Below are positions 47,379 to 47,561 of a stretch of 64,000 nucleotides of DNA, in pieces. Each line of letters begins with the position of its first letter. The first letter of the stretch is position 1. The notes under the pieces are model-generated. The model was not told the DNA's origin and searched no databases. It worked only from the letters and a program-made list of their open reading frames with translations. The translations under genes were made by a program, and so were the position numbers. Origin of the DNA: Escherichia coli (GTDB lineage Bacteria > Pseudomonadota > Gammaproteobacteria > Enterobacterales > Enterobacteriaceae); the NCBI RefSeq assembly GCF_016026235.1, contig NZ_CP065613.1. One strand, given 5' to 3'.

Positions 47379-47561
47379 CCCTGAGGGCGACGTAGCAGTA
47401 AATCCGACGGTGAATCACGCTGATATTCGCGGGTTGGATACCGCATTACAGAGGTCCGTCATATGAGCCTGCCACTTTCTTACGTCGCGAATCAGCTTTG
47501 TTCCGCCGTCGCCAAGCGCTAACGTGGGTTACTCTTGTACTGGGCTACGTCGCCTTCAGGG
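47379..47561. ncRNA. candidate structured ncRNA (bridge-RNA-like) in the 3' non-coding end of the IS110-like element
   Basis: 183-bp domain closed by 18-bp inverted repeats CCCTGAGGGCGACGTAGC / GCTACGTCGCCTTCAGGG (one G/A difference, a G-U pair in a plus-strand transcript); contains a 10-nt exact copy of the left chromosomal flank. Confidence 0.3.

What the first reader, a model, noticed from the sequence alone, without database searches (positions are those of the whole stretch)
47379..47561. 183-bp inverted-repeat-closed domain in the 3' non-coding end: candidate bridge-RNA-type guide RNA
Between the recombinase stop (47619) and the element end lies a domain closed by 18-bp inverted repeats (CCCTGAGGGCGACGTAGC at 47379-47396; GCTACGTCGCCTTCAGGG at 47544-47561). 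The single difference between arms is G versus A, which gives a G-U wobble in a plus-strand transcript and a C-A mismatch in a minus-strand one. Established knowledge: IS110-family recombinases are programmed by a structured bridge RNA of roughly 150-200 nt encoded in a non-coding end of the element, which is 3' of the recombinase in IS1111-type elements (Durrant et al. 2024; Hiraizumi et al. 2024). Size, position and closing stem here fit that architecture. A weak sigma70-like promoter (TTGACG at 47352, TAATTC at 47374) sits just upstream on the plus strand.
Basis: inference. Interest (0 to 1): 0.7.

Follow-up and report, generated by a model that had tools for sequence, protein, structure and literature searches.

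The report
Bridge (seek) RNA gene of ISSso6

Summary
The inverted repeat is real: 20 bp, 19/20 complementary, at 47377-47396 and 47544-47563. It closes a ~193-nt domain in the 3' non-coding end of ISSso6, an IS110-family, IS1111-group element on the minus strand at 47316-48834, inserted between pdeD and yoaE. The domain is conserved downstream of the recombinase gene in about 70 relatives, down to ~47% protein identity. Its fold is backed by compensatory changes at 40 of 53 pairs.

Two strands of one internal loop track each element's own insertion site. The 5' strand (window 47514-47525) is complementary to the top strand of the core plus right flank. The 3' strand (47479-47483) repeats the left flank plus core. 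No permutation out of 10,000 matched this fit. A third segment, AUAUCAG (47420-47426), copies the right end of the element.

This is bridge/seekRNA architecture, and Durrant et al. 2024 already list ISSso6 as having a bridge RNA in its right end. The plus-strand reading, the promoter and the recombinase stop are not supported.

The window copy is degenerate, with a frameshifted recombinase gene. The guides match the terminal inverted repeats of IS66-family elements, the natural target.

The parts
47316..48834 (-). ISSso6 (IS110 family, IS1111 group), 1519 bp counting one copy of the shared dinucleotide (CT on the plus strand, AG in element sense). It sits between the stop codons of pdeD and yoaE.
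   Evidence: Megablast hits are annotated 'IS110-like element ISSso6 family transposase'. The empty site in E. coli O157 reads GTTAACG-CT-TACTCATC.
47374..47566 (-). Bridge/seek RNA domain (~193 nt) closed by stem P1.
   Evidence: Conserved at 73-88% DNA identity in ~45 Burkholderiales relatives over exactly this stretch. The covariance model finds it downstream of tnp, in tnp sense, in more distant relatives.
47544..47566 (-). P1, 5' strand in RNA sense.
   Evidence: RNAalifold and pair counts: all 22 P1 pairs show compensatory changes once distant relatives are included.
47374..47396 (-). P1, 3' strand in RNA sense.
   Evidence: The A.C mismatch (47555 against 47385) is present in 36/46 relatives.
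47514..47525 (-). Right target guide, 5'-ACGUUAGCGCUU-3'. It is the 5' strand of the target-binding internal loop (47524-47525 also lie in helix P2). [quoted passage not shown]
   Evidence: Alignment columns 64 to 60 are complementary to right-flank positions +1 to +5 in 92, 95, 83, 80 and 74% of relatives. Mean 5.0/6 against 2.23 +/- 0.23 when targets are permuted, 0/10,000. Longest match to own site 6.14, to others' sites 3.13.
47487..47512 (-). Inner stem (GCGA/UCGC) and hairpin that separate the two target guides.
   Evidence: Compensatory changes in all 7 pairs (helices 5 and 6).
47479..47483 (-). Left target guide, 5'-GUAAG-3', within the 3' loop strand 47476-47486. It has the same sequence as the top strand of left flank plus core, so it pairs with the bottom strand.
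   Evidence: Columns 104, 103 and 102 are identical to left-flank positions -1, -2 and -3 in 93, 93 and 69%. Mean 2.92/4 against 1.47 +/- 0.19, 0/10,000. Own 4.95, others 3.26.
47465..47475 (-). 3' strands of the helices that close the target-binding loop (GUGG and GCUC). Their partners are at 47524-47534.
   Evidence: Helices 3 and 4: 6 of 8 pairs with compensatory change. CCAC/GUGG in the window against CCGC/GCGG in most relatives.
47428..47445 (-). Conserved hairpin UGCGG-UAUCCAAC-CCGCG, the most conserved core of the RNA. Probably a recombinase-binding scaffold (inference).
   Evidence: 76-90% identical even in relatives with ~50% protein identity. Compensatory GUGG/CCAC and GAGG/CCUC variants.
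47419..47426 (-). Donor (right-end) guide AUAUCAG (47420-47426) plus one handshake-like base (47419, C). AUAUCAG equals the last 5 nt of the right end plus AG.
   Evidence: Direct repeat with the right-end junction in the window (D2). It covaries with the right end in distant relatives: AUACGAG against CATACG-AG in L059 and L067. The next base equals the first base of the right target flank in 92% of 38 relatives and never equals the donor base (0/30).
47395..47401 (-). Candidate left-end donor guide UUUACUG. UACUG is complementary to left-end positions 2-6 (CAGTA). Unresolved.
   Evidence: Conserved in close relatives and in L058, which has the same left end. Absent in distant relatives with other left ends. 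No covariation could be shown.
47318..47331 (-). Right sub-terminal inverted repeat (CACGGAAAGTCATA in element sense). The right-end terminus ...ATC is at 47316-47318.
48815..48828 (-). Left sub-terminal inverted repeat (TATGACTTTCCGTG in element sense). The left-end terminus GCAG is at 48829-48832.
47330..47335 (-). TTGACA: -35 half of the promoter that would form when the ends are joined in a circle. The -10 half, CAGTAT, is at 48826-48831, 17 nt away in the joined form.
   Evidence: TTGACA is invariant in 43/43 right ends (position -15 in 42/43). CAGTAT is invariant or nearly so in 30 left ends. The function is inferred from the family (PMC11187229, PMC12288879).
47581..48707 (-). Recombinase gene, disrupted in this copy by a 1-bp deletion after 47783.
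   Evidence: ORFs 47619..48755 and 47581..47937 together reproduce the ISfinder ISSso6 protein. Alignment with intact copies L086 and L091. Close homologues carry PF01548 + PF02371.

Best explanation
The segment is the gene for the guide RNA (bridge RNA or seekRNA) of ISSso6, an IS1111-group member of the IS110 family.

The RNA is most likely made on the window's minus strand as the 3' part of the recombinase transcript. That transcript would be driven by a promoter assembled when the excised element circularises (TTGACA in the right end, CAGTAT in the left end). In this chromosomal copy it could also arise by read-through from yoaE. The RNA would then be processed (inferred).

That stem carries a branch with an internal target-binding loop and a multiloop holding the donor-matching bases. 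[quoted passage not shown] The next base matches the first base of the right target flank, which resembles an IS621 handshake guide.

Shown here: the conservation, the fold, and the covariation of guides with target flanks and with the right end. Inferred: transcription, strand, processing, recombinase binding and the chemistry.

The guides specify GTA-AG-CG(Y)(Y)AACG. This is the outer end of the terminal inverted repeats of IS66-family elements. The pdeD/yoaE site in the window mimics it by chance. This copy has a frameshifted recombinase gene and one private substitution in the RNA, so it could act only with recombinase supplied by another copy.
For: Identity and boundaries of the element.

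IS1111-group anatomy: 14-bp sub-terminal inverted repeats, and about 265 nt of non-coding DNA 3' of the intact stop against about 125 nt 5' of the gene.

DNA conservation is confined to the domain across Burkholderia, Paraburkholderia and Cupriavidus relatives.

Fold: 98.4% of cells paired and 11 compensatory pairs among close relatives. With distant relatives, 93.2% against 71.6% in shuffles, 40/53 pairs compensatory, covariation score 0.52 against at most 0.10 for slid controls.

Guide-target covariation and permutation tests.

Eight independent ISSso6 insertion sites share GTA-AG / CG(Y)(Y)AACG. L086 matches the right guide perfectly.

The right-end guide covaries with the right end in L059 and L067.

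Strand: 11 G.T against 3 A.C in guide-target pairs, and GC/GU/AU but no AC at stem pair 25/196.

Published survey: ISSso6 is listed with 'Detected Bridge RNA End: RE, group IS1111' (Durrant et al. 2024, Supplementary Table 5).

Family precedent for a 3' RNA with top- and bottom-strand matches: PMC11187229.
Against: There are no expression data, so transcription, ends and processing are unknown.

Folding energy does not distinguish the strands. Alifold gives -118.3 against -117.5, and single sequences fold slightly better antisense in 29/46 cases.

The sense strand carries an A.C mismatch in the closing stem in 36/46 relatives. On the other strand this would be a G.U.

The guide for the left end of the donor could not be identified by covariation.

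No Rfam model matches, though Rfam may simply lack this family.

The structure was predicted on the sense alignment, and the extended alignment was fitted to it, which favours that structure.

This particular copy has a broken recombinase gene and a private G-to-A change (RNA sense) at 47541 that breaks one stem pair.
Confidence: 0.88

Rival explanations
1. The same domain is transcribed on the plus strand, antisense to the recombinase gene. It would act either as the guide RNA or as a regulatory antisense RNA. This is the orientation the first reader leaned towards.
For: The plus strand turns the stem mismatch at 47385/47555 into G.U, and 36/46 relatives keep that combination. Folding energies are equal on both strands. 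Antisense small RNAs exist in some IS110-family elements, such as Asr9 of ISPpu9 (PMC12288879).
Against: No promoter-like site on the plus strand passes the scan, and the proposed hexamers lie in a stretch that is not conserved. Non-Watson-Crick positions in guide-target pairs are G.T in the minus-strand reading 11 times and A.C 3 times. Stem pair 25/196 shows GU 20 and AC 0, and pair 9/211 shows GU 40. A plus-strand guide would pair the left flank with the top strand and the right flank with the bottom strand, the opposite of IS621. Every homologue lies downstream of tnp on the tnp strand.
Confidence: 0.07
2. The inverted repeat is a transcription terminator or an mRNA-stabilising 3' hairpin for the recombinase gene or for the convergent pdeD gene, with no guide function.
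For: It is a long G+C-rich stem directly downstream of a coding region. On the plus strand a T-rich stretch follows within about 15 nt.
Against: No terminator-like call falls at the stem on either strand. On the tnp strand no U-run follows it. A terminator does not explain 150 nt of conserved interior, two loop strands that covary with insertion-site flanks, or the copy of the right end.
Confidence: 0.02
3. The segment is a host intergenic repeat or a miniature element independent of the recombinase.
For: E. coli ZYB62 has the non-coding end alone (292 bp, 89.7% identity) without a recombinase gene.
Against: That copy is a truncated remnant next to an IS256 pseudogene. The empty pdeD-yoaE site in 5,421 E. 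coli genomes has only 3 bp between the genes. Every other occurrence is inside ISSso6 or a relative. The window holds one copy only.
Confidence: 0.01

Closest known systems
seekRNAs of IS1111-family elements ISEc11, ISKpn4, ISPa11 and ISPst6 (Siddiquee et al. 2024, PMC11187229)
   Same: The RNA is encoded in the non-coding region 3' of the recombinase gene of an element with sub-terminal inverted repeats. It carries one segment complementary to the top strand and, further 3', one complementary to the bottom strand, and these overlap at the insertion point. A junction promoter forms from the two ends.
   Different: None of those elements is ISSso6, whose recombinase is only about 20-25% identical to the others in that paper's identity table. 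The target is different. Whether ISSso6 RNA is processed to a short (~80 nt) form is unknown. The domain here is about 193 nt and includes bases that match the donor.
IS621 bridge RNA (Durrant et al. 2024, PMC11208160; Hiraizumi et al. 2024, PMC11208158)
   Same: A structured RNA of about 180 nt. An internal loop carries two guides that pair with opposite strands on either side of a shared core (left flank with the bottom strand, right flank with the top strand). A separate guide matches the element's own end. One base next to a donor guide matches the non-cognate DNA, like a handshake guide. The recombinase is homologous in its C-terminal domain.
   Different: In IS621 the RNA lies 5' of the gene and the order along the RNA is left guide then right guide. 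Here the RNA is 3' of the gene and the order is right guide then left guide. The core is CT in IS621 and AG here, where only the A behaves as shared. The donor-matching bases lie in a multiloop, as Durrant et al. note for many IS1111 members. The handshake-like base sits beside the bottom-strand-pairing donor guide, not beside a top-strand-pairing guide.
[quoted passage not shown]
   Same: An IS1111-group element whose preferred target is a fixed position inside the terminal inverted repeat of another mobile element.
   Different: Here the target is the inverted repeat of IS66-family elements (GTAAG|CG...), shown for ISEc47. I did not find this stated for ISSso6 in the papers searched.

Membership tests
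IS110 family, IS1111 group | DEDD (RuvC-like) plus Tnp-domain recombinase (Pfam PF01548 + PF02371) | tested here: met
   Homologues of 72-95% identity all carry PF01548 + PF02371. The C-terminal domain matches the IS621 and ISCro4 recombinases in the PDB. In the window the gene is frameshifted.
IS110 family, IS1111 group | Sub-terminal inverted repeats of 7-17 bp | tested here: met
   14 bp, TATGACTTTCCGTG / CACGGAAAGTCATA, at 48815-48828 and 47318-47331.
IS110 family, IS1111 group | The longer non-coding end lies 3' of the recombinase gene | tested here: met
   About 265 nt (47316-47580) 3' of the intact stop, against about 125 nt (48708-48832) 5' of the start.
IS110 family, IS1111 group | Site-specific insertion with a short shared core and no ordinary target duplication | tested here: met
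   Empty and filled sites differ by the element plus one CT. Eight independent copies share GTA-AG / CG(Y)(Y)AACG.
IS110 family, IS1111 group | Circular intermediate that creates a junction promoter | not testable with these tools
   Only the motifs can be seen: TTGACA + 17 nt + CAGTAT across the joined ends, invariant among relatives.
Bridge RNA / seekRNA | Conserved structured RNA domain in the non-coding end, with covariation support | tested here: met
   (40/53 pairs compensatory; 93.2% paired against 71.6% shuffled). The extended alignment was fitted to the model.
Bridge RNA / seekRNA | Loop segments that pair with opposite strands of the target on either side of the core and covary with it | tested here: met
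   No other variable segment of the RNA shows specificity for its own target.
Bridge RNA / seekRNA | Segments that pair with the element's own joined ends (donor recognition) | tested here: inconclusive
   The right-end guide AUAUCAG is present and covaries with the right end in L059 and L067. The left-end guide was not resolved: UACUG is complementary to CAGTA, but no covariation was found.
Bridge RNA / seekRNA | Transcribed, bound by the recombinase and required for transposition | not testable with these tools
   No expression or biochemical data are available here. The claim rests on family precedent (PMC11187229, PMC11208160).
Bridge RNA / seekRNA | Match to a curated covariance model | tested here: inconclusive
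   No Rfam 15 family matches at E <= 10 over 46800-49200. Durrant et al.'s own models did detect a bridge RNA in the right end of ISSso6 (Supplementary Table 5).

The most novel reading that the evidence does not exclude
In the ISSso6 clade the recombination geometry may mirror that of IS621.

First, the guide order is reversed. Second, the handshake-like base sits 3' of the bottom-strand-pairing right-end guide. It equals the first base of the right target flank in 35/38 relatives and never equals the corresponding donor base (0/30). Third, in the 11 relatives whose right junction reads AA (all have UU in the right guide), the left junction reads AG in 8 of the 9 that could be read.

The second 'core' base therefore stays with the right-hand partner in the readable cases. 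This implies a crossover confined to one base, and possibly that the bottom strand is exchanged first.
Probability: 0.3. Interest if true: 0.5.

Novelty: already known. Interest (0 to 1): 0.27.

Why it matters
It also shows that the strand call needs comparative data rather than a single wobble.

Biologically it is an expected part of a catalogued element. The useful additions are a guide-level reading of the ISSso6 RNA and the link between its guides and the terminal repeats of IS66-family elements. Two further leads could be tested by people who engineer these recombinases: a handshake-like base and a one-base crossover in an IS1111-type system. This copy itself is degenerate and explains nothing about the neighbouring host genes, both of which remain intact.

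Tried and rejected
Rfam 15 over 46800-49200 at E <= 10 gave only two chance hits, a miRNA and a snoRNA model.

The single-sequence minimum-energy folds pair 47405-47412 with 47505-47512 in a long stem. Relatives do not support this. Compensatory changes favour the GCGA/UCGC stem and hairpin instead.

Folding energy as a strand test was uninformative. So was wobble counting in the left guide (8 against 7).

The variable internal loop next to P1 (47535-47541 / 47458-47464), the hairpin loops and the other variable stretches were tested as extra guides against both flanks in both senses. None showed specificity for its own target or for donor positions.

The predicted CUG/CAG helix (alignment columns 134-136/163-165) is not kept in distant relatives (74% paired), so I do not rely on it.

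I looked by eye and by mutual information for a left-end guide in the segments 5' of the conserved hairpin and 3' of CCGUCG. I found partial patterns only.

L002, a 95.7%-identical relative covering window 47501-48837, looked like a variant with a different distal non-coding end. It is simply truncated by another insertion.

Full report
**Context.** The window is E. coli/Shigella chromosome with the genes nudL, sdaA, pdeD (yoaD) and yoaE. In an E. coli O157 genome the convergent genes pdeD and yoaE are 3 bp apart. In the window they are separated by 1.5 kb. Megablast identifies this DNA as ISSso6, annotated 'IS110-like element ISSso6 family transposase'.

Comparing the filled and empty sites places the element at 47316-48834 on the minus strand. 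One dinucleotide (CT on the plus strand, AG in element sense) is present at both junctions. The ends carry 14-bp sub-terminal inverted repeats (47318-47331 and 48815-48828). The longer non-coding end lies 3' of the recombinase gene. This is IS1111-group anatomy.

The two ORFs 47619..48755 and 47581..47937 together reproduce the ISfinder ISSso6 protein. Alignment with intact copies shows a 1-bp deletion after 47783. The gene is therefore broken here, and the true stop is at 47581, not 47619.

**The observation.** It is 20 bp long with one non-complementary position. It is unique in the window and well beyond chance (fold z-scores -5.7 and -5.1).

**Conservation.** A blastn search of plasmids with the whole non-coding end found 74-82% identity in Burkholderia, Paraburkholderia and Cupriavidus. 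The identity is confined to query positions ~60-250, which is the repeat-closed domain. A scan of one genome per species with a recombinase alignment gave 80 loci. The domain lies downstream of the gene, on the same strand, in all loci long enough to hold it. A covariance model built from 46 aligned domains finds full-length matches in relatives down to about 47% protein identity (E 1e-11 to 1e-29). In the window it finds one site only.

**Structure.** RNAalifold on the 46 sequences gives three main parts:
- a closing stem, P1 (window 47544-47566 with 47374-47396);
- a branch of two short helices (GAGU/GCUC and CCAC/GUGG) that encloses an internal loop, with an inner stem and hairpin inside that loop;
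- a highly conserved 3' half containing the hairpin UGCGG-UAUCCAAC-CCGCG.

Among close relatives 98.4% of cells pair and 11 pairs show compensatory change. No shuffle out of 500 reached this. With distant relatives added, 93.2% of cells pair against 71.6% in shuffles. Forty of 53 pairs show compensatory change, including all 22 in P1. Slid controls reach a covariation score of at most 0.10, against 0.52 observed. That alignment was fitted to the model, which favours it. One predicted 3-bp helix (CUG/CAG) is not supported.

**Guides.** I located the ends and flanks of about 40 relatives by their conserved terminal motifs. I then compared every RNA column with every flank position. Three signals stand out.

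- The five bases on the 5' side of the internal loop are complementary, antiparallel, to right-flank positions +1 to +5 of the top strand (92, 95, 83, 80 and 74%). The complementarity continues through the core and usually one base into the left flank.
- Bases on the 3' side of the same loop are identical to left-flank positions -1, -2 and -3 (93, 93 and 69%), followed by an invariant AG.
- The base after the invariant AUAUCAG is identical to right-flank position +1 (92%).

Permuting targets among elements never approached the observed fit. The right guide scored 5.0/6 against 2.23 +/- 0.23, and the left guide 2.92/4 against 1.47 +/- 0.19, each 0 of 10,000. In an own-versus-others comparison of every variable RNA segment, only these two loop strands were specific (6.14 against 3.13, and 4.95 against 3.26).

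In the window the guides are 5'-ACGUUAGCGCUU-3' (47514-47525) and 5'-GUAAG-3' (47479-47483). They fit the local site GAGTA-AG-CGTTAACGT with one G.T.

**Donor recognition.** AUAUCAG (47420-47426) equals the last five bases of the right end plus AG. This explains the 10-bp direct repeat the tool reported between 47311-47320 and 47417-47426. The ends are invariant among close relatives, so covariation is visible only further out. L059 and L067 have AUACGAG, and their right ends finish CATACG-AG.

A guide for the left end was not resolved. UACUG (47395-47399) is complementary to left-end bases 2-6 and is kept in L058, which has the same left end. Relatives with other left ends show nothing comparable at that place. 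Durrant et al. remark that in many IS1111 members the donor-binding bases lie in a multiloop, which agrees with the position of these segments.

**Strand.** Thermodynamics does not decide it. Several lines favour the recombinase strand:
- Eleven G.T against three A.C at non-Watson-Crick guide-target positions.
- The covarying stem pair with GC 20, GU 20, AU 6 and AC 0.
- Several G.U pairs, present in 40-45 of the 46 relatives, that would be C.A on the other strand.
- The pairing rule, left flank to bottom strand and right flank to top strand, is the same as in IS621 only in this sense.
- The lack of any plus-strand promoter.
- Published work in which IS1111-family RNAs map downstream of tnp and were supplied in tnp orientation, with transcription ascribed to the junction promoter.

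Against this, the sense strand keeps an A.C mismatch in P1 in 36 of 46 relatives. I put the minus strand at roughly 90%.

**Promoter.** Joining the ends gives TTGACA (47330-47335), 17 nt, then CAGTAT (48826-48831). Both hexamers are invariant among relatives. In the chromosome the element lies directly downstream of yoaE on the same strand, so read-through is possible (inference).

**What is known.** Durrant et al. 2024 (Supplementary Table 5) list ISSso6 with 'Detected Bridge RNA End: RE' and group IS1111. Siddiquee et al. 2024 include its protein in their survey. No paper in the library describes its RNA or target in detail. The feature is therefore already known in kind, and for this element. 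The guide assignments above are additional detail.

**Natural target.** Eight independent ISSso6 copies share GTA-AG on the left and CG(Y)(Y)AACG on the right. Several are flanked by IS66-family genes. Rejoining the flanks of one copy gives a sequence found intact in 705 E. coli genomes, in up to 22 copies per genome. In one such genome it is the first base onward of ISEc47, an IS66-family element bounded by an 8-bp duplication. The left repeat of ISEc47 starts GTAAGCGTAAAGCC, and the right repeat, read inward, starts GTAAGCGTCAACGGAGCACCG. Both forms occur as ISSso6 right flanks. ISSso6 therefore inserts 5 bp inside IS66-family terminal repeats. The pdeD/yoaE site is a chance look-alike.

**Verdict.** The identification as a bridge-type guide RNA is correct. 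The proposed strand, promoter and recombinase stop are not. It is an ordinary feature of a known element, and of modest interest.

Noticed in passing
window 47783-47784 (recombinase gene): This ISSso6 copy lacks one base that intact copies have, which frameshifts the recombinase gene. Several E. coli copies are also annotated as frameshifted.
   Followed up: yes
window 47541: A private substitution (T here, C in other ISSso6 copies; G to A in RNA sense). It breaks a G-C pair at alignment columns 35/127 that 44 of 46 relatives keep.
   Followed up: partly
L094 2901-2998 and 5400-5445; L085, L087, L090, L093: The natural target of ISSso6 is the outer end of the terminal inverted repeats of IS66-family elements such as ISEc47 (GTAAG|CG...). 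This parallels IS4321/IS5075 and Tn21 repeats. I did not find it stated in the papers searched.
   Followed up: yes
L093 2395-2510 (E. coli SCAID WND1-2022): A complete ISSso6 is joined at its right end to the internal site ...AATATCAG|CGTGATT of another copy's non-coding end, leaving a 116-bp right-end fragment in tandem. The DNA that encodes the right-end guide is itself a copy of the right end and seems to have served as a pseudo-site.
   Followed up: partly
L008, L009, L020, L021, L029, L030, L031, L035, L043, L049, L053: In these relatives the right junction reads AA and the right guide has UU. The left junction could be read in 9 of the 11 and is AG in 8 (CA in L030), and the left guide is always AG. 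The second 'core' base thus stays with the right-hand partner in the readable cases, which suggests a crossover confined to one base.
   Followed up: partly
alignment A3 column 166 (window 47419) against left-end position 1: The base after AUAUCAG tracks the first base of the right target flank (92%) and is never the same as the variable first base of the left end (0/30; about 4-5 expected by chance). This resembles the IS621 rule that handshake guides must match the non-cognate DNA and not the cognate one.
   Followed up: partly
window 47270-47302: A perfect 11-bp inverted repeat (CGGCATAATGG / CCATTATGCCG, 11-nt loop) inside the last codons of pdeD, also present at the empty site. It may be a terminator for the convergent yoaE. 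The IS now lies between yoaE and this hairpin.
   Followed up: no
L003 and similar places in the 90-95% identity group: A widespread E. coli remnant keeps window 47308-47400 joined directly to 47597-47934. It has lost almost the whole guide-RNA domain and most of the recombinase gene.
   Followed up: partly
L041 (Caballeronia megalochromosomata): The search for sub-terminal repeats returned a 125-bp near-perfect inverted repeat (123/125) flanking this relative. The cause is unknown.
   Followed up: no
window 48834-48836 and 47309-47311: The insertion sits exactly between the two stop codons. Both host ORFs stay intact, and the T of the duplicated CT supplies part of the yoaE stop codon.
   Followed up: yes
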